A model generated the notes under the pieces. The model was given only the letters and a program-made list of their open reading frames with translations, was not told the DNA's origin and did not search any database. From Chiloscyllium plagiosum (Eukaryota), in NCBI RefSeq assembly GCF_004010195.1, contig NC_057756.1, positions 8,450,456-8,512,922 on the forward strand: a stretch of 62,467 nt of DNA, in the 5' to 3' direction. This document shows, piece after piece, positions 29,238 through 59,757 of this stretch; the stretch's first letter is position 1, and each line of letters starts with the position of its first letter. Position numbers and translations under genes: made by a program.

Positions 29238-29443
29238 GTACTTTATGTTATCACACTTTGCTATCGGGTGGAACAAAGTAAGAGAGAGGGATCAATCAGC
29301 TGCTGCTTCTCAGGCAGGGAACATTTTTCTCCCTCTCTGTGTTGGAACATACAATAATGTCAACTGAACACCAAACTGGGCCATGTGTGCTCTCTGGAGC
29401 AATCACTGAAAAACCTGATTATGGATTATATGCAGGGGCATCA

Positions 29444-29875
29444 TGGTCTGGGAATCAGAATTTATGTAGCTAGGGGAATAATTAGCAAGCGGGATCTCAG
29501 ATTTAGAAATCCCTGGAATACGCCCAGTGCCATGTACAAGTGAGAACAGAACTCGGAGTTTTAGACAGATGAGAGTTTGACTGGAACGATGATGCAGCAG
29601 GAAGGGCTTCAGATTCCTGGGACATTGGGGCTGGTTCTGGGGAAGGCAGCAACTGTACAAGCTGGATGGGCTAACGTGACAGAGCTGGGACTGAATTTCT
29701 CACAGGGTTTTTTAGAGACGGATTGAAAATAACCTGGTGTGTGCTCAGGATCCAAAAAGGAATAGTAGAGGAGACTACCAGGACTCTCAAAATAATGGGA
29801 GATACAGTTGGTACTAAGTTACAAGAACACGTTTATCAGTGGAAGATGGAGTAAGAAAGTAAGCCTTAATCTGAG
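29444..29875 (+). repeat. Near-identical copy of 23319-23750
   Basis: About 430 bp with only a handful of differences; ORFs 23275-23535 and 29403-29660 share most of their sequence. Confidence 0.95.
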
Positions 29876-37423: not shown

Positions 37424-37923
37424 NNNNNNNNNNNNNNNNNNNNNNNNNNNNNNNNNNNNNNNNNNNNNNNNNNNNNNNNNNNNNNNNNNNNNNNNNNNNN
37501 NNNNNNNNNNNNNNNNNNNNNNNNNNNNNNNNNNNNNNNNNNNNNNNNNNNNNNNNNNNNNNNNNNNNNNNNNNNNNNNNNNNNNNNNNNNNNNNNNNNN
37601 NNNNNNNNNNNNNNNNNNNNNNNNNNNNNNNNNNNNNNNNNNNNNNNNNNNNNNNNNNNNNNNNNNNNNNNNNNNNNNNNNNNNNNNNNNNNNNNNNNNN
37701 NNNNNNNNNNNNNNNNNNNNNNNNNNNNNNNNNNNNNNNNNNNNNNNNNNNNNNNNNNNNNNNNNNNNNNNNNNNNNNNNNNNNNNNNNNNNNNNNNNNN
37801 NNNNNNNNNNNNNNNNNNNNNNNNNNNNNNNNNNNNNNNNNNNNNNNNNNNNNNNNNNNNNNNNNNNNNNNNNNNNNNNNNNNNNNNNNNNNNNNNNNNN
37901 NNNNNNNNNNNNNNNNNNNNNNN

Positions 37924-40257: not shown

Positions 40258-40386
40258 TGCCCCACTGAGATCGTGTACACATCCGTGAATGTACAGCAGC
40301 AGAATGTAGGAACACCGAAGGGTTGGCACCATGAAGACAATGTCGATTCAGAAGAGATTGTCTATAGTGTTCTCAAACACAAGTAG
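40258..40386 (+). CDS. Terminal exon of an inhibitory receptor with two ITIMs: CPTEIVYTSVNVQQQNVGTPKGWHHEDNVDSEEIVYSVLKHK*
   Basis: gtgttatttttcaatag acceptor; only phase 0 is open; two I-V-Y-x-x-V/L motifs, each preceded by Glu; TAG at 40384-40386. Confidence 0.85.
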   Translation, partial: CPTEIVYTSVNVQQQNVGTPKGWHHEDNVDSEEIVYSVLKHK

Positions 40387-40844
40387 ATTTATTATGGATT
40401 GGTCAGAGATGTGTGGCTAAAATTGAGATTCCAGCTAAATAGTTTGATCACTGAGTGATCGACCCCCTCATTGACAGTGATAACACAATCGGAACTGTCC
40501 ATACTTTTTTCAAAGTACCTGTCAGAGAGGGGTGCAACAGGTGGGACTTGAAGCCGGCACTGCTGGCTCAGTGATAGGGACACTACCACCATCCCAGAAA
40601 GTTGCAAACCCATACTGAAGCCCGTGGACATTTGATACCCTGAGATCACGACATCAGCCAACAGACACTGCCACCACATCCCAGACTGGAAAGCATCATT
40701 AATAACCACAGCAGGAATGCCAAGAAGACCATCAGAAATAGGACAGGATTAGTTGGTCTGTTGTAACCTTTTTAGGTGGATGTCCAAGAGAATTTTTTTC
40801 TTTTCAATTGTGGTGTTGGGTTTTCCATTTGCCAAGATTTAAGG

Positions 40845-41380
40845 ATTTAGCCATTTGGCCACTTGAGCCTGCTCTGCCATTGGACAGGATCATGGGCTGA
40901 TCCGACATTCCTCATGTCCACTTTCCTGCCCTTTTCCTCGATCCCCTGACTGATCAGGAATTTCTCTATCACAGCCTTCAGTAGACACACGGACTCTGCC
41001 CCCACAGCTCTCTGTGGCAGGGAGCTCCAAAGGCCCACAACTCTCTGAGAGAAGAAACTCTTCCCCATCTCAGTCTGAATTTGGTGCCCTTTTATTCTGA
41101 GACAGTGCCCTCTGCCCCTAGACTCTCCCATGGGGGGGGACCCTCTCTCTCAGCATTGACCCTGTCCAGCCCCTTCAGAATCCGAAATGTTTCAGTGAGA
41201 TCGCCTCTCGTTCTAAACTCCAGTGAGGAGAGTCCCACCCAGTTTAAGCTTCGGTCAGGAGACAATCCCTCCATAGCAGGGGCCATCCTCGTGAACTGTC
41301 TCTGAATTGTTCTCAATGAAATGACCCCTTTCCTTCACAGCATTCCAGAGGTGGGGTCTCACTGGGACCTTGAATAGAAT
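40845..41380 (-). mobile_element. CR1 LINE 3' end
   Basis: RTRGDLTETFRILKGLDRV; SRGRGHCLRIKG..FFSQRVVGLWSSLPQ. Confidence 0.9.
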
Positions 41381-41491
41381 CATCACTTTTTGAAAGGTCA
41401 TGAACATGATGTAGATATTTCTGATGGAAGGAGATCCTTCGGTTCATCACGTATGAGCCTCTTGGTCAACAGCCATCTAGAATCATAGAAG

Positions 41492-41970
41492 CAGAATCCC
41501 TACAGTGTGGGCACAGGCCCTGCAGCCCAACAAGTCCACATCCACTCTCCGAAAGGTATCCCACCCTGACCTTATTACTCGACATTTTTCCCCTAACCTG
41601 CACATCCCTGGACACTATGGGACAATTTCGCATGACTAATCCACCCTAACCTGCACATCCCTGGACACTATGGGTAACTTAGCATGACTAATCCACCCTA
41701 ACCTGCTCATCCCTGGGCACTATGGGACAATTTCCCATGGCCAATCCACCATAACCTGCACATCCCTGGACACTATGGAACAATTTCCCATGGCCAATCC
41801 ACCCTAACCTGCACATCTTTGGACTGCGGTAGGAAACCGGAGCACCCGGAGGAAACCCACGCAGACACGGGAAGAATGTGCAAATTCCACACAGGCAGTC
41901 GCCCGAGGGTGGGATCGAACCCGGGTCCCTGGTGCCGTGAGGCAGCCGTGCTAACCACTGAGCCACCGTG
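41492..41970 (-). mobile_element. Full-length HE1-type SINE with an internal 53-bp tandem expansion
   Basis: Minus-strand head cacggtggctcagtggttagcac, B box ggttcgatccc, 4-5 internal units, CR1-like tail. Confidence 0.92.
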
Positions 41971-43736
41971 GTGATCCCGTTGTATTCCACCCACAGTTCG
42001 GAATGTTGTAACATTTCAGGTGAATATCCAAGAGATTATTTTTGTTCTAAATGGTGGTGTTAGGTCTTCCATTTGCCACGATTTAAGGCAATGCTTTTCA
42101 CATTCCTGTCACCCTCATGATGGTCCTCAAATTCACTTAAATCTTACTCAAAGACATTTTGTGCCTCATGGTTATTGAACTCTCTGCCATGGCCCATTGA
42201 TGTCATCATCAATCTGTTGTTGTGCTATCCTGTAAAATAACCACCTTCTCGGTCACATGTTGCCTGCCAGAACTAATTGCAAATAATGTATTAACACAGT
42301 TGTATAGTCCTTTGGATATATATTAAACCACAAACATTGCAGTGTCGTGATATTATTTCCTTATTGCCTATTCTGTTTGCATTCTGTCAGTTTTATTAAT
42401 GTCATGGTCTGGTCTACTTCTCCATTATACCACCCCTTGTTGTCCATTTAATTGGATGTGGTTCCTACTTGTAGACCTCTGGATCATCTTCACCTCCCCC
42501 TTTGAAAATGTGATGTCCGGAGTTCAACCAGCCTTCCAGAGTGGTCAAACAAATTGCTTACCAAGGGCTCCCGCGTTTGCCTATTCCATTGTCTCTATGG
42601 ACAACGCATTGTCACAAAGTTGGCATCTGAAAAATGGTAAAATTGTAAAATGAATTCAAAAGCAGTGCATGGTCCCTTTTAGAGATTGTGTTTTTGCAAG
42701 GTTTGTAGCTCAGGTTGAGGTTTAGGGTGTAGGTTTGCTCGCTGAGCTGTAGGTTTGATATCCAGACGTTTCATTACCTGGCTAGGTAACATCATCAGTG
42801 GCGACCTCCAAGTGAAGCGAAGCTGTTGTCTCCTGCTTTCTATTTATATGTTTGTCCTGGATGAGGTTCCTGGGGTTTGTGGTGATGTCATTTCCTGTTC
42901 GTTTTCTGAGGGGTTGATAGATGGTATCGAGATCTATGGGACAANNNNNNNNNNNNNNNNNNNNNNNNNNNNNNNNNNNNNNNNNNNNNNNNNNNNNNNN
43001 NNNNNNNNNNNNNNNNNNNNNNNNNNNNNNNNNNNNNNNNNNNNNNNNNNNNNNNNNNNNNNNNNNNNNNNNNNNNNNNNNNNNNNNNNNNNNNNNNNNN
43101 NNNNNNNNNNNNNNNNNNNNNNNNNNNNNNNNNNNNNNNNNNNNNNNNNNNNNNNNNNNNNNNNNNNNNNNNNNNNNNNNNNNNNNNNNNNNNNNNNNNN
43201 NNNNNNNNNNNNNNNNNNNNNNNNNNNNNNNNNNNNNNNNNNNNNNNNNNNNNNNNNNNNNNNNNNNNNNNNNNNNNNNNNNNNNNNNNNNNNNNNNNNN
43301 NNNNNNNNNNNNNNNNNNNNNNNNNNNNNNNNNNNNNNNNNNNNNNNNNNNNNNNNNNNNNNNNNNNNNNNNNNNNNNNNNNNNNNNNNNNNNNNNNNNN
43401 NNNNNNNNNNNNNNNNNNNNNNNNNNNNNNNNNNNNNNNNNNNNNNNNNNNNNNNNNNNNNNNNNNNNNNNNNNNNNNNNNNNNNNNNNNNNNNNNNNNN
43501 NNNNNNNNNNNNNNNNNNNNNNNNNNNNNNNNNNNNNNNNNNNNNNNNNNNNNNNNNNNNNNNNNNNNNNNNNNNNNNNNNNNNNNNNNNNNNNNNNNNN
43601 NNNNNNNNNNNNNNNNNNNNNNNNNNNNNNNNNNNNNNNNNNNNNNNNNNNNNNNNNNNNNNNNNNNNNNNNNNNNNNNNNNNNNNNNNNNNNNNNNNNN
43701 NNNNNNNNNNNNNNNNNNNNNNNNNNNNNNNNNNNN

Positions 43737-44222
43737 GAACACAGCAAGGCAGGCAGCATCAGGAGGGACAGGCAGGAGGCTGGAGGGACACAGCAAGGCA
43801 GGCAGCATCAGGAGGGACAGGCAGGAGGCTGGGAGAACACAGCAAGGCAGGCAGCGTCAGGAGGTGGAGAGGTCAACACTTCGGTTGGAACCCTTCTTCA
43901 GGACTGATGGTGGGGTGAGGGGATCTGCAGATAAAGGGGTGGGGGAAGTGGAGGCGGATTTTGTGTGGAGAGCCGGCTGCATGGTGAGGTCGGGATAGGT
44001 GGACACAGGTAGAGGGTACAGCCTGGTTGGTTGCTGGGTGGAATGAATCCGATTGGTAGCTGAAAGGATCAGTTGATGAGGGGTATGGAAGGGAGAGTAG
44101 GGGGCTGGGCAGGGACCTGGTGGATGGGAAGGGAGGTTATTTGAAATCGGAGAACTCAATGTTGAGTCCTCTGGGCTGTAGGCTGCCCAGGCGGAAGAGG
44201 AGGTGTTGTTCCTCCAATTTGT
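43737..44222 (-). mobile_element. Penelope-like GIY-YIG 3' end, with a 49-bp tandem repeat at 43737-43865
   Basis: Minus strand KLEEQHLLFRLGSLQPRGLNIEFSDFK*; repeated acacagcaaggcaggcagcatcaggagggacaggcaggaggctgg. Confidence 0.8.
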
Positions 44223-45299
44223 GGGCATTTGGAAATCAAGGGAAGGCAACTGTATCTGGAGAGTAATGATTGAGCTCTCACAGAAATCTTTAAGCCCTGA
44301 TTCAGCATCATCTAGAGGTGCATGGCACTCTTAATTAATATTCCTGACAGCAGAATTTAGCAAAGAAAGACTTGTGATGTGAGCTCAACAGAAGGTAAGA
44401 TCGGAGATAAAGTGGAAAAGACATCGATTGTGAGAATTTGGGAGGATTAAGTTTTATCGTTTTCTTCTTAATTGGGTTTATATAAATGGGAATTGTGATT
44501 ATCTGAACAACTTTCATCCCAGTAAAGTTTGTGCTTAGTTAGTGCTTCAGGGAGATTGTTCAGTTTGATAGTAATTTTGTTAATTTGCTCACTGCTGGAG
44601 TTTGGTGAATGAATTGCTGCTTGTAGAGGGGGTTAAAGGATTCCATTTCATTTCCCAACTCCGTTATAACAGATTGAGGGTAGGAGTTTGGCTATTCCCC
44701 CTTGTCACACTTCTTTATCAGATTAGGAGGTCGGTGTTTCGGTTTTAATTATCAGGGCGGGGGTCGACCTCCCCTTTGTAACAGTACAAAAGTGGTGTCC
44801 ATGAACTCAGTGTTCACGTTTCCAATTAGGCTGACGTAGTTGGCTTATTTTCGCTCAACTTTGTGAACTCAATTCCCACATCCATACAGGACTCTCCTTG
44901 TCAGACTCTCCCTTTGCCTGAGGTGTGGTGATCCTCCAGTTGAATCTGTTGCCCCTCTCTCAATGATCGGGCAGTCCCGGGGGGAGGGGGGGGCTCAGAG
45001 CTAACCTGTCCAGCTCTCTTGCAGATGCATCCTGTTCAATCTCGAATGCTTTCAGTTCTGCCTGTCTCAGTCTGCTTTCACACATTTCCGTTTCCTGCAA
45101 TTCACTGTGTATCTTGCACTCTCTCTTGCTAAACAGTGTGGAAATCCTTCTCCCTGTTTCCTATTCCTATGCTGAGCCTGGCCCTGCCCCCGCTGTTTCA
45201 GCCTCTCTGATTCAGTCCTTTTTTCTATAAACAAGACTTGGTCACAGAGAGATTACTCATTGCTTGTTTTTTTTTATTACCCCCACCCTACCGCCTAAC

Positions 45300-45550
45300 T
45301 GCAGTAGTGCTTTCCAATCCTCCCACTTTCTCCAAACAAAAGGAGTAGCCATGGGCACCCGCATGGGCCCCAGCTATGCCTGCCTCTTCGTAGGGTATGT
45401 GGAACAATCCATCTTCCGCAACTACACTGGCCCCACCCCCCATCTTTTCCTTCGCTACATTGATGACTGTATCGGCGCTACCTCGTGCTCCCACGAGGAA
45501 GTTGAACAGTTCATCCACTACACTAACACCTTCCACCCCGACCTCAAATT
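45300..45550 (+). mobile_element. Penelope-like reverse transcriptase fragment
   Basis: FLQTKGVAMGTRMGPSYACLFVGYVE...FLRYIDDCIG. Confidence 0.92.
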
Positions 45551-46228
45551 CGCGGTGATATCACTGTTACTGTATGCCTAGTGTTTGTCTTGATCTTGCA
45601 CATATCAAGAAAGGGAAACTTCATGCCTCAGAGATCACTAGATAGCAGAAAATCCCTTTAATACTTCAAAGTACTCTTTTGGTATGATCCTAGATATTGA
45701 ATATTGTTAGATATTATTACTGGAGCGAATCATAGATTTACATTTAAATAGTTCCCATTTCTGTCTTTGTTCACTCCTTTCCTCAGCAATATTTTGTGTT
45801 TGATTTTGTCTACTTTCTGTGGTTTTATTTACCCTAATGAAGAAGAGCATATCTTCTCAACATCACAACTATTGATCTCACCCTGCTTGGCTGTTGTATG
45901 GAACCCCCTACGTGTTAACCCCTTAAAGCCAAATACATAACAATATTGTCAAATTTGATGGAATTTTAATGCATTTACTTTAGGGGAAATTTGGCATGTT
46001 AATATGCTGCAGTTTTTCTTATCTGCGATGTTTTGTGTTATGTTGCTGAAAATATTACTGATGAAATACTTAGCAGTTGTAGTAAAATCATGCGTATACT
46101 TAGGATGAAGAAGATTATGAGTACCACATATGCTTGGTCCAGTTCTTGTTGGATTCATTTGGATATCAAAGTTGAAACTTTATTGCTGGAACAGCACAGC
46201 AGGTCAGGCAGCATCCAGGGAACAGGAG

Positions 46229-46264
46229 ATTCGACGTTTCGGGCACAGGCCCTTCTTCAGGAAT
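46229..46264 (-). ncRNA. Minimal type I hammerhead ribozyme motif in a Penelope-like terminus
   Basis: Minus strand AUUC-CUGAAGA-A-GGGC-CUGU-GCCC-GAAA-CGUC-GAAU: core boxes, 4-bp stems I and II, loopless stem III. Confidence 0.7.
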
Positions 46265-46479
46265 GAGCAGAGAGTGTTCAGCAGGAGAAGATAAAAGGTA
46301 GGGAGGAGGGACTTGGAGGAGGGGCGTTGGAAATGTGATAGGTGGAAAGAGGTCAAGGTGAGGGTGATAGGTGGGAGTAGGATGGAGGCGGAGAGGTCAA
46401 GAAGAAGACATTTCCAACTCCCCTCCTCCAAGTCCCTCCTCCCTACCTTTTATCTTCTCCTGCTGAACACTCTCTGCTC

Positions 46480-46515
46480 GTTCCTGAGGAAGGGCCTGTG
46501 CCCGAAACGTCGAAT
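46480..46515 (+). ncRNA. Minimal type I hammerhead ribozyme motif (second arm of the inverted repeat)
   Basis: GUUC-CUGAGGA-A-GGGC-CUGU-GCCC-GAAA-CGUC-GAAU. Confidence 0.7.
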
Positions 46516-46609
46516 CTCCTGTTCCCTGGATGCTGCCTGACCTGCTGTGCTGTTCCAGCAATAAAGTTTCAACTTTGATCTCCAGCATCTGCAGACCTCA
46601 CTTTCTCCT

Positions 46610-47065
46610 GCTTATTTATTCCCCCCAGCACCCATGGTGTGTATGTGTCGGTGTGAGACTTAGTGAGAGACACAAAGTGCACGAATCTTTATTCAATTTC
46701 CACCACCAGGAAGATAGGAAAATACCCAGGTGGCCAGTGACAAACACTGCCCTTCACATCAAAGGGCAGTGCTGTGTGATCAAAACAGTGAAGGGGAGGG
46801 TAGGGACTAAATCAAAATGGAGTTGGAGGGAGAAATGATGCACTCCACTCCCTGTGGCGCCCACCTCTCCCTGAACAACTCCAGGGTGTTGGTGGACACC
46901 GCGTGCTCCTTCTCCAAGGACACCCGGGCCCTAACGTAACCGCGGAAGAGGGGCAGGCAGTCGGCCCTAACGACCCCCTCCACGGCCCGCTGCCTGGACC
47001 TGTTGATGGCCAGCTTGGCCAGGCCCAGGGGCAGACCCACGAGGAGGTCTTCAGACCTGCCCTCC
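46610..47065 (-). mobile_element. Tx1-like (L1 group) LINE 3' end
   Basis: LGLAKLAINRSRQRAVEG...FRGYVRARVSLEKEH...FRERW C-terminus, then a 3'UTR with AATAAA. Confidence 0.75.
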
Positions 47066-47329
47066 CTCCTCCGTCATTGCCCGCTTTTTGAGTGAATAAC
47101 ACTACTTGCTCATCCAATTAAAACACAATTTACAAACAACGAGTCATTGCTGATGCTCTGGGAAGAGACCAGACTGCTCGGGACTCCACCTGGTGCTCAA
47201 AGTAACATGCTGCAGTCTCCGAATTCAGGAGAAAATGATACCCACCAAGCTGTATAAGTAGTCACCCACCTTCACATAAACCAAGGGTACTTCGGTACTG
47301 CCAGAGCTATAAGCTCACAAATAGAATAA

Positions 47330-50300
47330 TTAAAGAAATACCGATTTCATTAAGAAAATATAGATTTACATTAGAAAATATGCATTTAACTAAGAAAATG
47401 TAGATTTAGCTCAGAAAATATAAACTTGGCAAAGAAAATATAGATTAAGGAAAGAATGTATAGATTTAATAAAGAAAATGTAGATATAGCTCAGAAAATA
47501 TAGGCTTGGTAAAGAAAAGGTAGATTTAAAGAAAGAAAGTATGGATTTATTGAAGAAAATGTGGATTTAACAAAAAATTGAAATAAGACAATATAGATTG
47601 AACTAAGAAAATATAGATTTAACTAAGAAAATATAGATTTGAATGAGAATATGTAGATTTAACTAAGAAAATGTAGATTTAACTAAGAAAATGTGGATTA
47701 AATAAAAAAAGATTGAACTAAGAAACTATATTCAAAGTTTGAGAGAAGATTTGTGGGCGACACGGTAGCACAGCAGTTAGCACTGTTGCCTCACAGCGCC
47801 AGAGACCCGGGTTCAATTCCCGCCTCAGGCGACTGACTGTGTGGAGTTTGCATGTTCTCCCCGGGTCTGCGTGGGTTTCCTCCGGGTGCTCCGGTTTCCT
47901 CCCACAGTCCAAAGGTGTGCAGGTCAGGTGAATTGGCCATGCNNNNNNNNNNNNNNNNNNNNNNNNNNNNNNNNNNNNNNNNNNNNNNNNNNNNNNNNNN
48001 NNNNNNNNNNNNNNNNNNNNNNNNNNNNNNNNNNNNNNNNNNNNNNNNNNNNNNNNNNNNNNNNNNNNNNNNNNNNNNNNNNNNNNNNNNNNNNNNNNNN
48101 NNNNNNNNNNNNNNNNNNNNNNNNNNNNNNNNNNNNNNNNNNNNNNNNNNNNNNNNNNNNNNNNNNNNNNNNNNNNNNNNNNNNNNNNNNNNNNNNNNNN
48201 NNNNNNNNNNNNNNNNNNNNNNNNNNNNNNNNNNNNNNNNNNNNNNNNNNNNNNNNNNNNNNNNNNNNNNNNNNNNNNNNNNNNNNNNNNNNNNNNNNNN
48301 NNNNNNNNNNNNNNNNNNNNNNNNNNNNNNNNNNNNNNNNNNNNNNNNNNNNNNNNNNNNNNNNNNNNNNNNNNNNNNNNNNNNNNNNNNNNNNNNNNNN
48401 NNNNNNNNNNNNNNNNNNNNNNNNNNNNNNNNNNNNNNNNNNNNNNNNNNNNNNNNNNNNNNNNNNNNNNNNNNNNNNNNNNNNNNNNNNNNNNNNNNNN
48501 NNNNNNNNNNNNNNNNNNNNNNNNNNNNNNNNNNNNNNNNNNNNNNNNNNNNNNNNNNNNNNCACCCCTCAGCCTCCGACGCTCCAGGGAAAACAGCCCC
48601 AGCCTGTTCAGCCTCTCCCTGGAGCTCAGTTCCTCCAACCCTGGCAACATCCTTGTAAATCTTTTCTGAACCCTTTCAAGTTTCACAACATCTTTCCGAT
48701 AGGAAGGAGACAGGATTGCATATAATATTCCAAAAATGGCTTAACCAATGTCCTGTTCAGCCACAACATGACCTTCCAACTCCAACACTCTGACCAATAA
48801 AGGAAAGCATACCAAATGCCTTCTTCACTATCCTATCTACCTGCGACTCCACTTTCAAGGTCTCTTTGTTCAGCAAATCTCCCTAGGAAATTGCCATTAA
48901 GCGTATAAGTCCTGCTAAGATTTGCTTTCCCAAAATGTAGCACCTCGCATTTATCTGAATTAAACTCCATCTGCCACTTCTCATCCCATTGGCCCATCTG
49001 GTCAAGATCCCGTTGTAATCTGAGGTAATCTCCTTTGCTGTCCACTACATCTCCAATTTTGGTGTCATCTGCAAACTTACTAACTTTACGTGTTATTTCA
49101 CATCCAAATCATTTATGTAAATGACAAAAAGTAGAGGACCCAGCACCGATCCTTGTTGGCACACCAATGGTCAAAGGCCTCCAGTCTAAAAGAAAATATA
49201 GATTTAACTAAGAAAATACCAATTAAACTAAAGAAAATAGAGATTTAAATAAAAAAACTATACGTTTAACTAAAAAACTGTAGATTTAACTGAGAAAATG
49301 TAGGTTTCACAAAGAAAATGTAGGTTTAACTGAGAAAATGCAGATGTAATGAAAATATAGATTTAGCTATGAAAGTGTGGATTTATCGAAAAAATAGATT
49401 TAAATGAAAGAAAATGTAGACTTCACTAAGAAAATGTTGATTTACCTGAAGAAAATATGCATTTCAATAAGACAATATAGATTTAACTAAGAAAATGTAG
49501 ATTAAACTAAAGAAAATGCCCATTTAACGAACAAAAATATGGATTTAACCAAGAAAATGTATATTTGACTAAGGAAATATATGTTTAACTAAGAATGTAT
49601 GGATTTAACTAGGAAATGTTTAGTTTACACTGCAAAAATATAGATTTAGCTCAGAAAATATAGACTTCACGAAGGAAATATAGATTTAACAAAGAAAATG
49701 TCAATTAAACTGAAGAAAAATATAGATTTCACTGAAGAAAACATAGATTTACTAAAGAAAATATAAATTTGACTAAGAAAATGTAAATTAAACTAAAGAA
49801 AACGCTGATTTAATGAACAAAATATGGATTTAACTTAGAAAATGTCAATTTAATGAAAAAATATGGATTGAACTAAAAAAATGTATATATGACTCAGAAA
49901 ATACAGATTTAAGTAAGGAAATATAGAATTAACTAAGAAAATGTAGATTTATCTAAGAAAATGTAGGCCAGACTAAGAAATTCTAGATTTAACGAAATAA
50001 AATACAGATTTAACTAAAAAACTGTGAATTACTCTAAAGAAAATGCCAATTTATCTAAAGAAAATATAGGTTAAACTCAGAACACAGATTTATCTAAGGA
50101 AATGTTGGTTTTACTGAGAAAAAATAGGTTTAACTTTAAAATTGTGGATTTAATGGAAGAGAATATATATTTAACTAAGAAAATGTAAATTTAACTTAAA
50201 ATATCGATTGAACTATGAAAAATATATATGACTCAGAAAATATAGATTTAAGTGAGGAAATGTAGATTTAACTGGAGAAAATATAGACTGAACAAAAACA

Positions 50301-52335
50301 ATACAGATTTAACTAAGAAAATGTCGACTTGACTCAGAACTTCTAGATTTAGCTAAAGAAAATATAGATATAAATTTAAAAACTGTAGATTAAACTAAAG
50401 AAAATGCCGATTTAACTAAAGAACATATAAGTTTAACTAAGAACACAGATTTAACTGAGAAAATGTAGGTTTCACTAAGAAAACATTGGTTTAACTTAGA
50501 AATTGTCGATTTAATGGCAGAGAATATAGACTTAACTAAGAAAATGTAGATTTAACTTAGAAGATGTCAATTTAATGAAAAAATATAGATTGAACAAAGA
50601 ACATGTATATTTGACTAAGGAAATATAGATTTAACTTGGGAAATGAAGACTTGACTAAGGAACTGCAGATTTAAATAACAACAATATAGATTTAACTGAA
50701 GGAAATGTAGATTTAACAAAAACTATACAGATTTAACAAAGAAAATGTAGATTTGACTAAGAAATTCTTGATTTAACGAAAGAAAATACAGTTTTAACTA
50801 AAGAAATGTAGATTAAACTAAAGAGAATGCCAATTTAACTAAAAAAAATAGGTTTATCTAAGAACACAGATTTATCTAAGGAAATGTAGGTTTCACTGAG
50901 AAAACATAGGTTTAACTTAGAAATTGTAGATTTAATGGAAGAGAACATAGATTTAATTAAGAAAATATAGATTTAACGAAAAATATATAGATTTAATGAA
51001 AAAGGTTCAGGTGAAATGAAAGAAAAAGCAGATTTAACTAAGAAAACATAGATTTAAATAAGAAAATATAAATTTAACTAAAAACATGTAGATTAAACTG
51101 AAGAAAATGCTGATTTCATGAAAGAAAAGATGGATTTAACTAAGAAGACTTCAAATTAATGAAAAAATATAGATTTAATGAAGAAGCTGTAGATTTAACA
51201 AAAACAATACAGATTTAACTAATAAAATGTAGATTTAACTTAAAAATGATTTAACTAAGAAAATGCAGGTGAAACTAAAAGGAAAACAGATTTAACTAAA
51301 GAAAATATCAATTTAACTAAGAAAACAAGAATTAACTAGGTAAATATAAATATAACTAAGAAAATGTAGATTAAACTAAAGTAAATATTGATTTAAGGAA
51401 AGAAAATATGGATTTAATTTAGAAAATAGGGATTTAATTTAGAAAATATCAATTTAATGAAAAATATAGATTGAACTAAGAAAATGTACATATGACTCAG
51501 AAAATGTAGATTTAACTATAGGAAATGTAGATTTAACTAAGGAAATATAGATTTAACTATAGGAAATGTAGAGTAAGGAAATATAGATTTAAGTAAGAAA
51601 ATGTAGATTTAAGTAAGGAAATATAGATTTAAGTAAGAAAATGTAGATTTAACTAAGAAAATATAGATTTAACTATAGGAAATTTAGACTTAACAAAACC
51701 ATACAGATTTAACTAAGAAAATGTAGGTTTAACAAAAAATTAGATTTAACTAAGAAAATATAGATTTCACTGGGAAAATGTAGATTAAACTGAAGAAAAT
51801 GCAGATTTAACAGAAGAAAATACAGGTTTAATGAAGTAAACATAGTTTTGACTAAGACAATGAAGGTTTCACTGGGAACATATAGGTCGAATTTAAAAAT
51901 GTAGATTTAACTGAAGAAGATATAGGTATAATTAAGAAAATGCTGATGAAACTGAAGAAAATGTACATTTAAATAAGAAAATATGGATTTAACTCAGAAA
52001 ATACGGACTTAACTATTAACTTATGCAAGAAAATTGTTGGTTTAACTAAGAGAATGTAGATTTAACTAAGAGAATGTAGACTATACTAAAGGAAACATAG
52101 ATTTAACTAAAGATAATATAGGATTAATTAAGAAAATGCAGATTTAACTAAAGAAAATATAGGTGTAAGAAAATATATATCTAACTAAGAAGATGTAGGT
52201 TTCACTGAAGAAAATATAGGTTTAACTAAGAAGATGTAGATTAAACTGAAGAAAATTTAGATGCAACAAAATGTGGAGTTATCTAAGAAAAATGGATTAA
52301 ATGAAGAAAATGTAGATTTCACTATGAAAATATAG
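47330..52335. repeat. AT-rich degenerate satellite, 20-21-bp unit (TAGATTTAACTAAGAAAATA/G), interrupted by HE1 (47754-47942), a gap and CR1 (48563-49190, minus)
   Basis: Continuous units at 47330-47730 and 49190-52335. Confidence 0.95.
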
Positions 52336-52914
52336 CCGCGCCAACCCTCACGTTCTGCTCCTCTCTCTCTGACAGGATTTCCATTCTAATCTTTCAGCAC
52401 CTTTACCAACCTTTCCAAGCTCAAAGCTGAAGTGTCATCAGATGCGAAACTCTGCTCTCTCTCTATCTCTCTCCCCACAGAGGCTGCCAGACTCTGCTGG
52501 GTGCTCCCCACAGGTTTTGTTCCTGATTTCCACTGTCTGCAGTCCTTTGGTTTTAATATAGATCTTCCAAACATTATTCTGCAACTCTTTGAAGGGAGGC
52601 GCAATCTTTATTTATCAACTCTTGAGGGACTCTACTAAATCACAACCATTTTAAAATTTCTTCACAAAATTATATCAACTTACCATCCTGATAAGCAAGC
52701 CATTTATTAGAAAATCACACCATTATTGAAGCATTGAAAATACACTGACGTAGCTATGGACCAGACCAGGCCCTCTAAAAATATTTATTAAAAGTAGCCT
52801 AGACCCTAACTTTTTCTTGTTTTTAATGGCAAATTTGAAGTGTATGTTCCAGTTGGAATGCAACTAGTCAAACTATTAATCGTTAAACCAGACACAATTT
52901 ATTTAAACACAAGA

Positions 52915-53422
52915 AAGGCTGGATAGGGTGAGACTTTTTTCACTAGAGTGTAGGAGGTTGGGAGGTGACCTGATAGAAGTTTACGAATTAATGAGGGGTA
53001 TGGATTGAGTTGATAGTAGTTGTCTTTCCCCCAGATTGTGGGATTTCAAGACCCGGGGGCACATTTTTAAGGTGAGAGAAGAGAAATGTTAAAAAGACAT
53101 AGAGGCAATCTTTTCTTACACGTGTGGAATGAACCGCCTGAGGAGGTGGTGGGTAAGGGTACAGTTATAACATTTAAAAGACATTTATTTGGATACATGA
53201 ATAGGAAAGGTTTGGAGGGATATGGGCCAGGAGTAGGAACGTGGGATTGGCATGGCCAACCCACCCTAACCAGCACATCTTCTGACCATGGGAGGAAACC
53301 GGAGCACCCGGAGGAAACCCACGCAGACACGGGGAGAAGAATGTGCAAACTCCACACATACAGTCGCCCGAGGGTGGGATTGAACCCAGGTCCCATGCTA
53401 ACCACTGAGCCACAATGCCACC
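52915..53422. mobile_element. CR1 3' fragment (+, to about 53250) abutting an HE1 SINE (-, 53250-53422)
   Basis: VWNEPPEEVV..ITFKRHL..YMNRKGLEGYGP, then ggaggaaaccggagcacccggaggaaacccacgcagacac. Confidence 0.85.
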
Positions 53423-54314
53423 CTCTATACGATTTCACAGCCAGTGTAAAAGCATTAAGACCTGAAGGAAAGAAATGGGGAATTGTAAATATTCCTGTTT
53501 TGGGAGGTAACATTTAAAGATTGACACCAAGATATGGGAGTGACAAGCAAGTGTCGGGCAAGAAAGTGTATTGGCCCTGTGACATCATTGCCAAACCATG
53601 GATCCAGATACCGATGTTGTGTTCTGGGGAGTTGAGAGTGTGTTGCTGGGAAAACGCAGCAGGCCAGGCAGCATCAGGATACTGTCTGACCTGCTGCGCT
53701 TCTCCAGCACCACACTCTCGATTCTGATCTCCAGCATCTGCAGTCCTCACTTTCTCCTAGTGTTCTGGGGGGACCTGGTTCAAGTCCAGCCAGGGCAGAT
53801 GGCGGAATTTCGATTCAACGAAAATCTGGAATTAATGAGGCTTATAACCTGATTGTTGGGTCAAAACCCATCTGGTTCACTAATGTCCTTCAGGAAGGAA
53901 ACTGCCATGCTTCCTACATGTGACTCCAGACTCACAGCAATGTGGTTAACTCTGGGCAACAAATACTGGCTTTGTCATCAGATTGTCCGATTGAATTTCA
54001 ATTTGAAATTATCTAAATGTTGGGAAAGGTAGACATAAAGATATCTGAGTTCATTGGGTTCCCAAGTGGGACATATCCCAATACTCGACTTAAAGCACAG
54101 AAATATAGTGCAGTATTAAATAGTCAGAGATTTTAATATTGCCTTGTCTTTGAGGACGATGTTTCTTTCAGGACTCTCATGAAATTGAAATGAAAGATTC
54201 GGGCCAAATGGAGAGTGAAACACTGTTCAGATCCTGGCTGACTTCAGTTTGTTCTTGTTCAGGCTGTATGCTTCCGAACATCGCGACTGAAAAACAATGG
54301 CATTAAATGCAGGA

Positions 54315-54321
54315 TCAATAT
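54315..54321 (-). CDS. Probable terminal coding exon (R)Y-stop of the ITAM receptor
   Basis: tgattattttgcag|A TAT TGA; phase-2 entry matches the preceding AG|gt. Possible ATTAAA poly(A) signal near 54132-54137. Confidence 0.6.
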
Positions 54322-54434
54322 CTGCAAAATAATCAAACACCATGTGATAATCTGTCCAAATATGTGACGTGGGAATGAACAATTTCAAACAGCCTTCACA
54401 CAGAATTTATGGACAATTGGTCAGCTGCACTGAT

Positions 54435-54466
54435 AAATAGATAGATAGACAGACAGATAGACAGAC

Positions 54467-54497
<31 letters not shown>

Positions 54498-54500
54498 TAG
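54435..54500. repeat. (GATA)n/(GACA)n microsatellite in the last intron of the ITAM gene
   Basis: Directly visible. Confidence 0.95.
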
Positions 54501-54624
54501 AATGAAAGACTGTTGGCTATTAAACAGACATATGATGCATAAATTCAGAGATGCATGATAATGAGGTGGATGTTACCCAGATCAATTGATCACCTGACAA
54601 TTCAGGAAGCAGCGTGAATCTTAC

Positions 54625-54668
54625 CTTTGTATTTCATTGTACACTGACTGTTCCCCCAACTTCAAACT
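54625..54668 (-). CDS. Cytoplasmic exon (44 nt) SLKLGEQSVYNEIQ(R), completes the ITAM
   Basis: cacttcccacag|AGTTTG...ATACAAAG|gtaaga. Spliced to the previous exon it gives YTSL-x7-YNEI. Confidence 0.88.
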
Positions 54669-54766
54669 CTGTGGGAAGTGATCACAACAAGTCAGATTTA
54701 CTGCTTCCTGTGTAATGCTCAGTACAATTGATGTCGAACATGCATTAGCAGGTGGGTTCCACTCAC

Positions 54767-54796
54767 CGTGTAAGTAGCGTTGATCTCTGCGGAATC
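54767..54796 (-). CDS. Cytoplasmic exon (30 nt) DSAEINATYT, first ITAM tyrosine
   Basis: gttttctttacgtcccaag|GATTCC...TACACG|gtgagt, phase 0->0. An alternative internal CAG acceptor 10 nt in leaves the ITAM frame unchanged. Confidence 0.85.
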
Positions 54797-55464
54797 CTTG
54801 GGACGTAAAGAAAACAGTTTTCAGGTGTGGAATATTCTGGAATAGACCTCAACAGGAAGGGAAACAGAGGGGGCCAATGCAGATGTGGGAGTAACTGGAT
54901 TTAATGTGGATGATGAACAGGCTAAATAATATTTCAAATCTTTGCTGGGAATTAATTAATATCTGACAGTGGTGGCTGGAACCTTAAATCATACAGATTT
55001 CTCCACCTGAACATGTTCTTTGAAAGATCTCACTAAATATTTGCTGCCTCCCTCTCGGTTTTGCCCTAGAGTGCTCCCATTTATTCCCGTCGCAAGTTAT
55101 TTTCTCATCCCTCCCCCAGCTGTTTTGTATTCCTGTTGAATGAGTTGGCAGGCAGATCACAACAGCTCAGTGTATCAAAAAATAACTCCACCATTTTGTT
55201 ATTCCTTTAGCCAACTGACTTCAAACTGTGTCGCCCAGCCAATGAGAAAGGTTGCAATTTGGTTTTTTTGCTCTTGATTAGATTAGATTACTTACAGTGT
55301 GGAAACAGGCCCTTCGGCCCAAATCGCTTCAAAAGACCTACACAGAAACAGAATCTGAATGTATCCCTCAATGTTACTATCTTAACAATAATGTCTTAAT
55401 GAGGAAATAGAGACAATCACATACTCAGACAAATCAGAAATGGGCAAAAGTTCATTAAGTCATA

Positions 55465-55780
55465 TTAGATTAGATTAGATTACTTACAGTGTGGAAACAG
55501 GCCCTTCGGCCCAACAAGTCCACACCGCCCCGCCGAAGCGCAACCCACCCATACCCCTACATTTACCCCTTAACACTACGGGCAATTTAGCGTGGCCAAT
55601 TCATCTGACCCTGCACATCTTTGTGACTGTGGGAGTAAGCCGGAGCACCCGGAGGAAACCCACGCAGACACGGGGAGAACGTGCAAACTCCACACAGTCA
55701 GTCGCCTGAGGCGGGAATTGAACCCGGGTCTCTGGCGCTGTGAGGCAGCAGTGCTAGCCACTGTGCCACCGTGCCGCCCA
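55465..55780 (-). mobile_element. Full-length, well-preserved HE1-type SINE
   Basis: Head gggcggcacggtggcacagtgg, B box ggttcaattcc, tail with (TCTAA)n; a lone tail copy at 55277-55321. Confidence 0.93.
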
Positions 55781-56459
55781 CAAAGACCTCAAAGACCTCA
55801 AAGCAATTGGTGTGTTTCTGGGTAAAATTCAAGGCATCCCGGTAAAAACGATTCTTCCTCAGAAATCACACGACACCAGGTTATAGTGCGGCAGGTTTAT
55901 TTGCAATCACAAAGCTTTTGGAGCGCTGTGACTTGTGACTTCAAGTTCATCGATTGGACTGTATCCTGGTGTTGTGTGACTTCTGACTTTGCCCACCCGC
56001 GTCCAACACCATCACCTCCACATCAGAGATTCGTTGTGGCATTTTATATCGTTGCCTCCAGTGATATCGTCACCAAGGTCAAACCTGTTCACATTTGTTA
56101 AGCCTTGTTCCTCTTCTCTGATAATTAAAATACATTGTCACATGAAGGTAAATGTTTTATTCCCTGCTCTACACACTCTTAGGGAGCTGAAGGGAAAAAT
56201 TCAAATCGCAATTCCTTTCAAGTGATTCCGATCACACAGCACAAATGATTAGCCAAAAAAGGGATCAGACTGTCATCAGTCACAGGGATAAAGGAAAGTT
56301 ACTGCGGATGCTGGAATCTGAAAACAAAAGAGAAAATGCTGGAAAATCTCAGCAGGTCTGGCAGCATCTGTAAGGAGAGAAAAGAGCTGACATTTCGAGT
56401 CTAACTGACCCTTTTGTCAGCTTTGACAGTCAGTTAGACTTGAAACGTCAGCTCTTTTC

Positions 56460-57270
56460 CACCACCCTTTGTGTGAAAATCCTAGCCAGCACGTCTTTTT
56501 TAAACTTCCCCTCCTCCCACCCTCCCCCACGTCAAACAGCTCTTGAACCTGTATCCCCGAGTAACTGACCCCTCCACCCTGGGGAAAAGCCTCATACTTT
56601 CCACTCTATCCATGCCATTCCCAAGCTTTTACATTTCTATCAGGTCAGCCCTCAACCTCCTGCGTTCCAGTGAGAACAAACCCAGTCTAACCAACCTTCC
56701 TTCAGAGCTAAAGGCCCCATACCAGGCAACATCCTGATCAACCTTTTCTGCACCCCTCTCCAAAGCATCCACGTCCTTCTGGTTAGTGTGGTGACCAGAA
56801 CTGGATGCAATATTCCAAGTGTGGCCTCACTGAAGCTCTATAAAGCTGCAGCATAACGTGTTTATCCTTATACTCAATGCCCCGTCCCAATGAAGGTAAG
56901 CAGGCCATTGGTCTATTTACTAGGTAAAAACAATGACTGCAGACGCTGGAAACCAGATTCTGGATCAGTGGTGCTGGAAGAGCACAGCAATTCAGGCAGC
57001 ATCCGAGGACAGGCAAAATCATTTTGCCTGTCCTCGGATGCTGCCTGAATTGCTGTGCTCTTCCAGCACCACTGATCCAGAAATTGGTCTATTTACTGCC
57101 TTGTCTACCTGCACTGCCACCTTCAGTGATCTGGGGGCCTGCACACCCAGATCCCTCTACATCTCAATGCTCCTAAGGGTTCTGCCATTCACTGTATAAT
57201 TTCCACGACTACTTAACCTTCCTCACATTTATCTGGAATAAACTCTGTCTGCCATTCCATTCCACTCTGA
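56460..57270 (-). mobile_element. CR1 3' part carrying a hairpin insertion (56922-57082)
   Basis: RGIEYKDKHVMLQLYRASVRPHLEYCIQFWSPH; 15-bp target duplication around the insert. Confidence 0.88.
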
Positions 57271-57302
57271 TGTATCCAGAAGAGTTGAAAGGATTGACTT
57301 AC

Positions 57303-57349
57303 CTGTTGAAATTTCTTCCTTTGATTGGGAATGTTGATATAGTGCTCCT
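57303..57349 (-). CDS. Cytoplasmic exon (47 nt) of the ITAM receptor, xEHYINIPNQRKKFQQ
   Basis: gtattctttcag|AGGAGCAC...TTTCAACAG|gtaagt. All three frames are open; the phase 1->0 reading gives YINI and joins in frame to the next exon. Confidence 0.75.
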
Positions 57350-57594
57350 CTGAAAGAATACGTTAGGATGAATAAGACAGCTTGAATCATTCTCATGAAA
57401 CGTAATCTGTCATTCATTCTACACTCATCAGGACAGATGCAAGAATGCCATATTGAACAGGGAGCAACAACTTATGCTGCAGTCAGATTATGTTCTTGAT
57501 GTCCTGAATTTGATTTGATCTGAATTATTATTGTGACATGTCTCGAAGTACAGTGAAAAGTTTTGTTTTGTTTGCAGTACACACAGAATAGGAT

Positions 57595-57906
57595 GTCTAC
57601 AGTGCGGAAACAGGCCCTATGGTCAAACAAGTCCACACTGACCCTCTGAAGAGTGATCCACCCAGACCCATTCCCCCTATCTTATTACTATACATTTCCC
57701 TGACCTAAAACGCCGAACACACACGTCCCTGAACACTACGGGCAATTTAACACGGCAAATCCATCTTTGGACTGTGGGAGGAAACCGGAGCACCTGCAAG
57801 ACACAGGGCAAGTGTGCAAACTCTGCACAGACAGTCACCCAAGGTTGGAATTGAACTAGGGTCCCTGGCTCTGTGAGGCAGCAATGCTAACCACTGAGCC
57901 ACCGTG
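57595..57906 (-). mobile_element. HE1-type SINE
   Basis: Minus-strand cacggtggctcagtggttagcattgctgcctcacag head, plus tail. Confidence 0.85.
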
Positions 57907-58499
57907 CAGCATTAGGGTAATGGAACAGAGTGAGGAATGCAATGTTACCGCTGCAGAGAAGGTACGCTAAGAGCGAGATCAACACTGTATTTCACGTATG
58001 AGAGGTCCATTCAGAAATCTTACAAGAGCTGGGAAGAAACTGTTCCTGAGTCTGTCCAGTCTAATCTCTAATAGATATTAACAGACCCTTGCTGGTACAT
58101 TATTAGCAATTGTATAATTTCAAATCTACTTTCTTCCTTTCTGCATACATTAAGCTTTGTTATTGTTATCTTCTGCGGAAGTGTCACTGGACCTGAAACT
58201 TTAACTCCAATTTCTCTTCACAGAAGCTGCCAAACCTGCTGAGCTTTTCCAGCAATTTCTGTTGTTCTTTCTAATTTACAGCATCTGCGTTTTTTTGTTT
58301 TTTTACTTGTTGAATATTTTAAATTCGGTCTGTGCTGTACATGTATCTCACGTATATTAATCAGCATTTTCTGGTATCATTGCACATCCACCTCCATTGT
58401 TTCTACTCGATAAAAACCAGTGATACACTAATGTGAACCAACTCACCATTTCTGGACATCAGCAAACACACAGGATAAAGAGGTGGACGACCAGCGGAA

Positions 58500-59008
58500 G
58501 GCAGTGCAGTGGCTCAGGGGTTAGCACTGATGCCTCACAGCACCAGAGACGCGGGTTCGATCCCGCCCTCGGGTGACTGTCTGTGTGGAGTTTGCACACC
58601 CTCCCCGTGTCTGTGTGGGTTTCCTCCGGGTGCTCCGGTTTTCTCCCACAGTCCAAAGATGTGCAGGTTAGTGGGGATTGACCATGGGAAATTGTTCCAT
58701 AGTGCCCAGGGATGTGCAGGTTAGGGGGGATTGGCCATGGGAAATTGAGGTTAGGGTGGGTTGGCCATGGGAAATTGTCCCATAGTGTCCAGGGATGTGC
58801 AGGTTAGAGTGGATTAGCCATGGGGAATTGTCCCATAGTGCCCAGGGATGTGCAGGTTAGGGTGGATTGGCCATGGGAAATTGTCCCATAGTGCCCAGGG
58901 ATGTGCAGGTTAGAGTGGATTAGCCATGGGTAATTGTCCCATAGTGCCCAGGGATGTGCAGGTTAGGGTGGATTGGCCATGGGAATTTGCCCCAGAGTGT
59001 CCAAAGAT
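58500..59008 (+). mobile_element. HE1-type SINE with a 53-bp tandem expansion running into the gap
   Basis: A/B boxes, then repeated aggttagggtggattggccatgggaaattgtcccatagtgcccagggatgtgc. Confidence 0.92.
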
Positions 59009-59674
59009 NNNNNNNNNNNNNNNNNNNNNNNNNNNNNNNNNNNNNNNNNNNNNNNNNNNNNNNNNNNNNNNNNNNNNNNNNNNNNNNNNNNNNNNNNNNN
59101 NNNNNNNNNNNNNNNNNNNNNNNNNNNNNNNNNNNNNNNNNNNNNNNNNNNNNNNNNNNNNNNNNNNNNNNNNNNNNNNNNNNNNNNNNNNNNNNNNNNN
59201 NNNNNNNNNNNNNNNNNNNNNNNNNNNNNNNNNNNNNNNNNNNNNNNNNNNNNNNNNNNNNNNNNNNNNNNNNNNNNNNNNNNNNNNNNNNNNNNNNNNN
59301 NNNNNNNNNNNNNNNNNNNNNNNNNNNNNNNNNNNNNNNNNNNNNNNNNNNNNNNNNNNNNNNNNNNNNNNNNNNNNNNNNNNNNNNNNNNNNNNNNNNN
59401 NNNNNNNNNNNNNNNNNNNNNNNNNNNNNNNNNNNNNNNNNNNNNNNNNNNNNNNNNNNNNNNNNNNNNNNNNNNNNNNNNNNNNNNNNNNNNNNNNNNN
59501 NNNNNNNNNNNNNNNNNNNNNNNNNNNNNNNNNNNNNNNNNNNNNNNNNNNNNNNNNNNNNNNNNNNNNNNNNNNNNNNNNNNNNNNNNNNNNNNNNNNN
59601 NNNNNNNNNNNNNNNNNNNNNNNNNNNNNNNNNNNNNNNNNNNNNNNNNNNNNNNNNNNNNNNNNNNNNNNNNN

Positions 59675-59757
59675 TAGAGCAATGGTCAATGCTACCAGAG
59701 CGATCACCAGCACTCCCACTATCACCCATGGAATGATGAGCTTGCTATCGGTATGAC
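59675..59757 (-). CDS. Transmembrane exon of an ITAM-bearing type I receptor (3' end lost in gap 59009-59674)
   Basis: Minus strand: pyrimidine tract cccttctctttgtgttttcacag, then phase-1 entry xGT CAT ACC... = (G)HTDSKLIIPWVIVGVLVIALVALTIAL; about 22 uncharged hydrophobic residues running into the Ns. Confidence 0.85.

What the first reader, a model, noticed from the sequence alone, without database searches (positions are those of the whole stretch)
40258..59757. Convergent ITIM and ITAM genes: candidate paired-receptor locus in a cartilaginous fish
Seen: an ITIM tail on + and an ITAM tail on -, with stop codons about 14 kb apart and facing each other. Known: paired receptors (CEACAM1/CEACAM3, Siglec pairs, LILR, CD300) are neighbours with similar ectodomains and opposite signalling. 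Inference: this may be an undescribed chondrichthyan pair in which the activating member has an intrinsic ITAM. Caveats: ectodomain similarity cannot be tested here, and two gaps lie between the tails.
Basis: inference. Interest (0 to 1): 0.85.

Follow-up and report, generated by a model that had tools for sequence, protein, structure and literature searches.

The report
Shark nectin-like activating/inhibitory receptor pair
A shark relative of the poliovirus receptor carries an activating signal motif and has an inhibitory twin with an almost identical outer part, likely a pathogen decoy pair; the inhibitory gene facing it in this window is a third, more distant relative.

Summary
Both tails are real. 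The + exon (40258-40386, two ITIMs) ends a single-V, TIGIT-like gene. The - exons (59757-54259) end a nectin/PVR-type V-C2-C2 gene. Its ITAM is split by a phase-0 intron, and contigs of two runs guessed to be RNA support the splice. The stops face each other 13.9 kb apart.

The two facing genes are not twins: their V domains are 25-32% identical and their architectures differ. The ITAM gene does have a true inhibitory twin (ITIM+ITSM), a third gene. The two ectodomains are 92% (epaulette shark) and 98% (zebra shark) identical within a species, but about 60% between shark families. Ectodomains group by species and tails by signal type (AU p 8e-107). In this genome the V-exon likeness stops 98 bases before and 26 bases after the exon, with 12 amino-acid-changing differences against 1 silent one, the pattern of gene conversion. 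The twin lies on unplaced contigs here.

This is a CEACAM1/CEACAM3-type pair built on a nectin/PVR scaffold; nine literature searches found no description. A pathogen-decoy role is inferred; ligand, cell type and signalling are untested.

The parts
40258..40386 (+). Last coding exon of a single-V, TIGIT-like PVR-family gene; ITIMs IVYTSV (40270-40287) and IVYSVL (40357-40374), stop 40384-40386
   Evidence: 79-95% identical to the tails of P0001-P0003, 93% to P0011. Its TM and penultimate exons are on unplaced contig C101091 (1748-1614 and 837-799); its V exon was not found in G000
59675..59757 (-). Transmembrane exon of the ITAM gene (5' part; the rest lies in the N gap 59009-59674); no charged residue in the TM of the orthologues
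   Evidence: 93% to P0004
57303..57349 (-). Cytoplasmic exon with the YxN motif YINI (57341-57330), a predicted Grb2-type site
   Evidence: matches the loose ends of contigs in X1 and X2; kept as YIN in P0004, P0006, P0014
54767..54796 (-). Exon ending in the first ITAM tyrosine (..ATYT), followed by a phase-0 intron
   Evidence: joint 54668/54767 with GT-AG ends in X1
54625..54668 (-). Exon completing the ITAM (SLKLGEQSVYNEI): YTSL-x7-YNEI
   Evidence: single copy among 3 candidates in G000
54259..54286 (-). Last coding exon of the ITAM gene, stop TGA 54261-54259; AATAAA/ATTAAA signal at 54137 and further downstream
   Evidence: loose ends of X1 and X2 begin at this acceptor
37424..37923 (.). 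500-N join upstream of the ITIM exon; probable place of the unplaced 44.9-kb contig C101091 that holds the upstream exons of the single-V gene (inferred; no end overlap found)
42945..48562 (.). Two sized gaps (792 N, 620 N) and intervening repeats between the two 3' ends; no further exon recognised there

Best explanation
The minus-strand gene encodes a nectin/PVR-type receptor (V-C2-C2) with a YxN motif and an ITAM, and a separate gene encodes a near-identical ectodomain on an ITIM+ITSM tail; the two likely work as an inhibitory receptor and its activating decoy, kept alike by likely gene conversion. Steps shown: architecture, tails, splicing of the ITAM, within-species identity, discordant trees, exon-limited likeness. 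Steps inferred: a microbe (a virus is the obvious candidate, since nectins and PVR are entry receptors) binds the V domain of the inhibitory form, whose phosphorylated ITIM/ITSM would recruit SHP-1/SHP-2. The twin binds the same ligand, and its ITAM would recruit Syk/ZAP-70 and its YxN Grb2, triggering uptake or killing. Selection changes the V domain, and conversion re-matches the pair. The facing single-V, two-ITIM gene is a third family member, possibly a TIGIT-like counter-receptor of the pair. Odds: true pairing about 0.9; pathogen-decoy role about 0.6.
For: Orthologues and twins. Ectodomain identity 275/299 (Hemiscyllium) and 293/300 (Stegostoma) within species, 179-191 of 298-299 between families; TM+tail 26-33% within a species pair, 47-89% among ITAM forms, 49-65% among ITIM forms. 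Ectodomain tree groups by species, tail tree by motif; ITAM-only clade rejected on ectodomains (p 8e-107), species clade rejected on tails (p 9e-5). In G000 the second V exon (C92302) sits behind the twin-type leader (89% to P0024). It is 96.5% identical over 463 bases only, with flanks falling to 36-51%, and differs by 12 replacement and 1 silent change. Replacements are enriched in V over C2 (G000 p 0.015; Hemiscyllium 15/111 vs 9/188, p 0.014). The pair's V domains are 56-66% identical between carpet-shark families, whereas shark nectin-1 V matches human nectin-1 at 77 of 113 positions (counted by eye). The same signatures define CEACAM pairs (PMC5112662 passages; PMC13278318 passages).
Against: No ligand, pathogen, cell type or signalling was tested. 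pN>pS within the V exon is not significant on its own (Fisher p 0.31). The twin's position and orientation are unknown: its exons are on unplaced contigs with no end overlap to the region, and its TM exon was not found. The second C2 exon copy (C93547) lacks its splice acceptor as assembled and cannot be assigned. The link between ectodomain and ITIM tail rests on annotated models of other species. The second ITAM half (SVYNEI) also fits the loose ITIM consensus, the window's copy has N rather than D/E three residues before the first tyrosine, and the Stegostoma form has YxxV. No ITAM form was found for Rhincodon, and no relatives outside carpet sharks were found by word-seeded searches.
Confidence: 0.62

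Rival explanations
1. The pair reads self nectins or the neighbouring single-V receptor, as in the TIGIT/CD226/CD96/CD112R network, and sets leukocyte activation thresholds without a pathogen driving it.
For: PVR-family signature motifs in both V types (AVYSPRFG/TFPQG; AVYSPQHG/TYPDG; motifs as defined in PMC4749091 passages). Complex prediction of the ITAM V (P0004) with the single V (P0001): weak support, score 0.49, best of 3 controls 0.00, runs agree in at least 97% of contacts, partner pLDDT at least 88. The mark was reached by 51 of 78 solved and 2 of 108 mismatched pairs, but at 0.60 or under by only 5 of 78 solved and by all 4 passing mismatches; like complexes (TIGIT-PVR, TIGIT-nectin-2) are solved, so the pass may be from memory.
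Against: A conserved self ligand does not explain the fast V divergence or the repeated homogenisation. The two roles are not exclusive.
Confidence: 0.25
2. The likeness comes from repeated recent duplication of the ectodomain exons onto old tails (unequal crossing-over), not from conversion between two stable genes.
For: Intron likeness runs about 500 bases downstream of the C2 copy, and C101537 shares 90-99% intron blocks with the ITAM gene.
Against: V-exon likeness stops 98 bases before and 26 bases after the exon; only two close V copies were found among 71 candidates; each gene keeps its own leader.
Confidence: 0.08
3. One reading: the two facing genes are themselves classical twins with similar ectodomains.
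For: Opposite tails, convergent stops, same protein family; orthologues share a chromosome-sized record in Hemiscyllium and C. punctatum (equal record lengths).
Against: V identity 25-32%; one against three Ig domains; separate well-supported clades. The single-V gene's own V exon is not assembled in G000, so orthologues stood in.
Confidence: 0.03
4. Assembly or annotation artefact: haplotigs and chimeric gene models create a false pair.
For: G000 is fragmented here (46 gaps in 462 kb); its own annotated model P0010 is truncated.
Against: Separate ITAM and ITIM models with their own leaders and isoform series in two other species; splice support.
Confidence: 0.02

Closest known systems
CEACAM1/CEACAM3 and Xenopus/reptile CEACAM pairs
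   Same: ITIM/ITSM versus ITAM tails; YxxL split by a phase-0 intron; YxN motif beside the ITAM; N/V-exon-limited conversion with few silent and many replacement changes (PMC5112662 passages; PMC13278318 passages).
   Different: The ectodomain is nectin/PVR, not CEACAM (best PDB hits nectin-1 3e-53 and PVR 2e-45); the whole V-C2-C2 is homogenised; only two copies were found.
PVR (CD155/Necl-5) and nectins 1-4
   Same: V-C2-C2 architecture and PVR motifs; like PVR the twin has an ITIM and no C-terminal afadin/PDZ motif (PMC7286890 passages).
   Different: No ITAM form appears in the passages read; that paper places PVR in placental mammals only; orthology to PVR was not tested against a full vertebrate tree.
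TIGIT / CD112R (PVRIG) / CD96 / CD226
   Same: The facing gene has one PVR-type V domain and inhibitory motifs; one source names the whale-shark orthologue TIGIT-like.
   Different: Two ITIMs and no YxN/ITT-like motif; closer to nectin-1/-2 (1e-12) than to TIGIT (8e-6). The mammalian activating member CD226 uses an ITT motif, not an ITAM (PMC8390200 passages).
Siglec-5/14, LILR, KIR, CD300 pairs (recalled, no call)
   Same: Homogenised ligand-binding domains with opposite signalling.
   Different: Their activating members mostly use a charged TM residue and DAP12/FcRgamma (recalled); here the TM is uncharged and the ITAM is intrinsic.

Membership tests
Paired receptors: the two facing genes | Highly similar ligand-binding ectodomains | tested here: not met
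   25-32% V identity; 1 vs 3 Ig domains, using orthologues for the single-V gene
Paired receptors: the two facing genes | Opposite signalling motifs, linked genes | tested here: met
   same-length chromosome records in other species
Paired receptors: ITAM gene and twin | Highly similar ectodomains | tested here: met
   275/299 and 293/300; 100/112 for V in G000
Paired receptors: ITAM gene and twin | Opposite cytoplasmic motifs | tested here: met
   ITAM+YxN vs ITIM+ITSM (two ITIM-type motifs in G000)
Paired receptors: ITAM gene and twin | Signs of gene conversion | tested here: met
   Discordant trees and AU tests; exon-limited likeness
Paired receptors: ITAM gene and twin | Close linkage and opposite orientation | tested here: inconclusive
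   Same-length chromosome record in Hemiscyllium and Stegostoma; unplaced in G000; orientation unknown
Paired receptors: ITAM gene and twin | Shared ligand, opposite signalling, overlapping expression | not testable with these tools
   No assay; no row for these genes recognised in the searched marker tables of PMC11372145 (file cut when stored)
ITAM | YxxL/I-x6-8-YxxL/I | tested here: met
   YTSL-x7-YNEI; YxxV in Stegostoma
ITAM | D/E three residues before the first tyrosine | tested here: inconclusive
   D in C. punctatum; N in this genome, Hemiscyllium and Stegostoma
ITAM | Phase-0 intron splitting the first YxxL | tested here: met
   feature as stated in PMC5112662
PVR/nectin family | V-domain motifs (V/I)(S/T)Q, AX6G, T(F/Y)PxG | tested here: met
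   AX6G and TFPQG/TYPDG present in the G000 ITAM V and the single-V proteins; first motif degenerate (FTQ; VSV); T or A replaced in some orthologues
Nectins proper (nectin-1 to -4) | C-terminal afadin/PDZ-binding motif | tested here: not met
   Absent from all pair and single-V tails; present (..RAVYV*) in the nectin at C47:10.2 Mb
TIGIT orthologue (facing gene) | Single IgV plus ITIM | tested here: met
TIGIT orthologue (facing gene) | ITT-like motif; TIGIT as best match | tested here: not met
   No YxN; TIGIT ranks below nectins, PVR, CD226 and CD96
TIGIT orthologue (facing gene) | Conserved synteny | tested here: inconclusive
   Neighbours are MAG/Siglec-like, IRG GTPase, B7-like V exons and a nectin; human map positions are recalled, not tested

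The most novel reading that the evidence does not exclude
Carpet sharks hold, in a region resembling human 19q13 (MAG/Siglec, IRG, nectin neighbours), a three-gene PVR module: an inhibitory virus-entry receptor, its ITAM decoy kept matched by gene conversion for the whole age of the group, and a TIGIT-like counter-receptor that binds them. The PVR-TIGIT checkpoint and CEACAM-style decoy pairing would then meet in one ancient jawed-vertebrate locus, and an ITIM-bearing PVR-like molecule would long predate placental mammals.
Probability: 0.25. Interest if true: 0.82.

Novelty: new variant of a known kind. Interest (0 to 1): 0.66.

Why it matters
Paired receptors with converted ligand domains mark proteins that pathogens exploit. 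A pair built on the nectin/PVR scaffold extends that strategy to the family used by polioviruses, herpesviruses and morbilliviruses (the last two recalled) and points to an unknown shark pathogen ligand. It also supplies candidate activating and inhibitory leukocyte receptors in cartilaginous fish and bears on the origin of the TIGIT/CD226/PVR checkpoint. Databases label these genes only 'nectin-1-like', 'poliovirus receptor homolog' or 'uncharacterized', so the pairing is hidden. The conversion claim can be tested at once on existing long-read shark genomes.

Tried and rejected
ITIM motifs as evidence by themselves: rejected, not above shuffles. Upstream exons of the ITIM gene within the window or the 200 kb before it: none found. 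The idea that the ITIM exon is an inverted alternative end of the ITAM gene or belongs to the upstream MAG/Siglec-like gene: rejected, since orthologues join it to a single V domain. Candidate tail exons near 56036-56100 and a 5-base microexon near 58450, seen by eye: the first is skipped in the contigs, the second has no support. V exon of the single-V gene in G000: not found among 42 and 33 candidates. Placement of unplaced contigs by end overlap: none usable. Sequencing runs: no RNA holder listed on record; X3 and X19 laid nothing, which is no test. Only 54510-55250 was laid, so expression of the ITIM exon is unchecked. The profile search over cluster representatives was unavailable, so the range beyond four carpet-shark genera is open. 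ESM Atlas gave only generic nectin clusters. Earlier findings: none. Literature searches returned no paper describing these genes in the listings or passages seen; most subscription journals are not covered.
Full report
Observation. The window is G000:C47:8450456-8512922. The + exon 40258-40386 follows an AG acceptor and encodes two ITIMs (IVYTSV, IVYSVL) and a stop. On the - strand a TM exon (from 59757, cut by a gap) and four small exons give a tail with YINI and YTSL-x7-YNEI, stop at 54261-54259. The stops face each other 13.9 kb apart across gaps of 792 and 620 N. Motifs alone prove nothing: 'two ITIM-like motifs then stop' is found 2 times in the window and 1.6 times on average in 40 shuffles. 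Conservation and splicing carry the case. Of 4 runs laid on 54510-55250, X1 and X2 (RNA by the tool's guess, related organisms) hold contigs that cover only the two exons. X1 skips the 98-base GT-AG intron, and both run on into the flanking exons. X3 and X19 gave nothing.

The ITIM gene. The exon is 79-95% identical to the ends of three shark proteins (3 of 5 candidates). The full-length ones are 227-232 residues: one V domain, an uncharged TM and the tail. In G000 its TM and penultimate exons lie on unplaced contig C101091. Its V exon was not found, so orthologues stand in for it. A profile matches nectin-1/-2 best (about 1e-12), then PVR, CD226, CD96 and TIGIT (8e-6). It is built like TIGIT or CD112R, but lacks a YxN motif and is not shown to be a TIGIT orthologue.

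The ITAM gene. Its Ig exons lie just beyond the window: V at C47:8529519-8529857, C2 near 8524231-8524525, and the first half of the third domain near 8521315-8521433. The leader and the second half of that domain are not on the stretch fetched; gaps lie there. Orthologues of 401-408 residues exist in Chiloscyllium punctatum, Hemiscyllium and Stegostoma (7 hits of 195 candidates). They match nectin-1 (3e-53) and PVR (2e-45), lack the afadin motif, have an uncharged TM and keep YxN and the ITAM. Their V domain is only 25-32% identical to the single-V protein of the same species and falls in a separate clade. The facing genes are therefore relatives, not twins.

The real twin. The same searches returned proteins with the same ectodomain on a different tail, (I/V)xYASL...TVYADI (ITIM plus ITSM): Stegostoma P0012, Rhincodon P0008, Hemiscyllium P0024 and a C. 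punctatum tail fragment P0022 ([2 of 36 candidates], 35, 36, 38). Within species the ectodomains are 275/299 and 293/300 identical; between the two shark lineages about 60%. TM plus tail is 26-33% identical within a species pair, but 47-89% among ITAM forms and 49-65% among ITIM forms. Ectodomains group by species and tails by motif; each alternative is rejected (AU p 8e-107 and 9e-5; six sequences, none dropped).

The twin in G000. It shows as a V exon on C92302 behind a twin-type leader, and a tail on C91666. The two V exons are 96.5% identical over 463 bases, and the flanks drop to 36-51%. They differ by 12 replacements and 1 silent change. That ratio is not significant alone (p 0.31), but replacements are enriched in V over C2 (p 0.015; Hemiscyllium p 0.014). 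F32L and T33A separate ITAM from twin in both G000 and Hemiscyllium, and position 58 differs in all three pairs. Against this tidy picture: the second C2 copy (C93547) lacks its acceptor as assembled, the twin's TM exon was not found, and no unplaced contig could be anchored.

Linkage. Record lengths put all three genes on one chromosome-sized record in Hemiscyllium, the ITAM and single-V genes together in C. punctatum, the twin and single-V in Rhincodon, and the pair together in Stegostoma. Order and orientation there could not be read. In G000 the two tails are joined by sized gaps between two 500-N joins, which suggests one scaffold (inference). Neighbours are a MAG/Siglec-like gene 25 kb before the window, an IRG GTPase, B7-like V exons and, 1.7 Mb away, a nectin ending RAVYV. 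From memory this set resembles human 19q13, the home of PVR and nectin-2.

Mechanism. Shown: architecture, motifs, splicing, concerted evolution. Inferred from established ITAM/ITIM biochemistry: the twin would recruit SHP-1/2, and the ITAM form Syk/ZAP-70 and Grb2. The best model is receptor and decoy. The V domains diverge fast: 56-66% between carpet-shark families, against 77 of 113 positions between shark and human nectin-1 (counted by eye). They are re-matched within species, as described for CEACAM pairs, including the phase-0 split of the ITAM and the YxN motif (PMC5112662, 12 passages; PMC13278318, 12 passages). The main rival is tuning by self nectins or by the single-V neighbour. A complex prediction of the ITAM V with the single V gave weak support (0.49 against 0.00 for the best of 3 controls; runs agree in at least 97% of contacts; partner pLDDT at least 88). 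Such low passes are more often wrong than right in the calibration, and like complexes are solved.

Prior knowledge. Nine full-text searches listed no paper on these genes. I read passages only of PMC7286890 (PVR has an ITIM, no PDZ motif, placental mammals only; no mention of ITAM), PMC4749091, PMC8390200, PMC10770119, PMC13262535 and PMC4079198. I searched only the supplements of PMC11372145, one file cut when stored, and recognised no row for these genes. Subscription journals are mostly not covered, so 'undescribed' is provisional. The range outside carpet sharks is untested by sensitive search.

Verdict. Observation confirmed; interpretation partly supported with the partner reassigned. 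New variant of a known kind: a CEACAM-style pair on a nectin/PVR scaffold, beside a TIGIT-like gene. Interest 0.66.

Noticed in passing
L024:4089-4523 and nearby (25 kb before the window, - strand): Two C2-type Ig exons of a MAG/Siglec/CD22-like gene; best PDB match MAG 1.8e-9.
   Followed up: partly
L007:3954-4664 (+): Interferon-inducible GTPase (IIGP/IRG) exon, Pfam PF05049 2.7e-40, about 37 kb upstream of the ITAM gene's V exon.
   Followed up: partly
L010:151-579 (+), L015:5949-6434 (-), and a fragment between them: B7-family V exons (best matches CD276 and VTCN1/B7-H4 for the first), in opposite orientations; a small B7-like cluster.
   Followed up: partly
G000:C47:10206182-10243000 (L057-L060): Nectin with two alternative TM/tail exons, one ending RAVYV; a true nectin on the same chromosome and a candidate ligand.
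   Followed up: partly
G000:C96452, C96261, C82352: Exons of a further nectin-like gene (V, C2, C2) on unplaced contigs; tail not seen.
   Followed up: no
G000:C93547:1261-1551 (L068): Second copy of the C2 exon, 99% identical, but its 5' end is replaced by unrelated sequence and the acceptor is missing: broken copy or misassembly.
   Followed up: partly
window 47343-47730 and 49190-52335: AT-rich 20-base satellite (about 158 copies in the long block) between the two 3' ends; gives spurious ITAM-like matches in translation.
   Followed up: yes
window 23275-23740 and 29403-29860; 18024-20436: Near-identical local duplications of non-coding or repeat sequence (seen).
   Followed up: no
about 154 kb and 170 kb before the window (+), and about 192 kb after its end (-): A 352-codon GPCR-like frame and two C1q-like frames seen in the ORF list; names by eye, not tested.
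   Followed up: no
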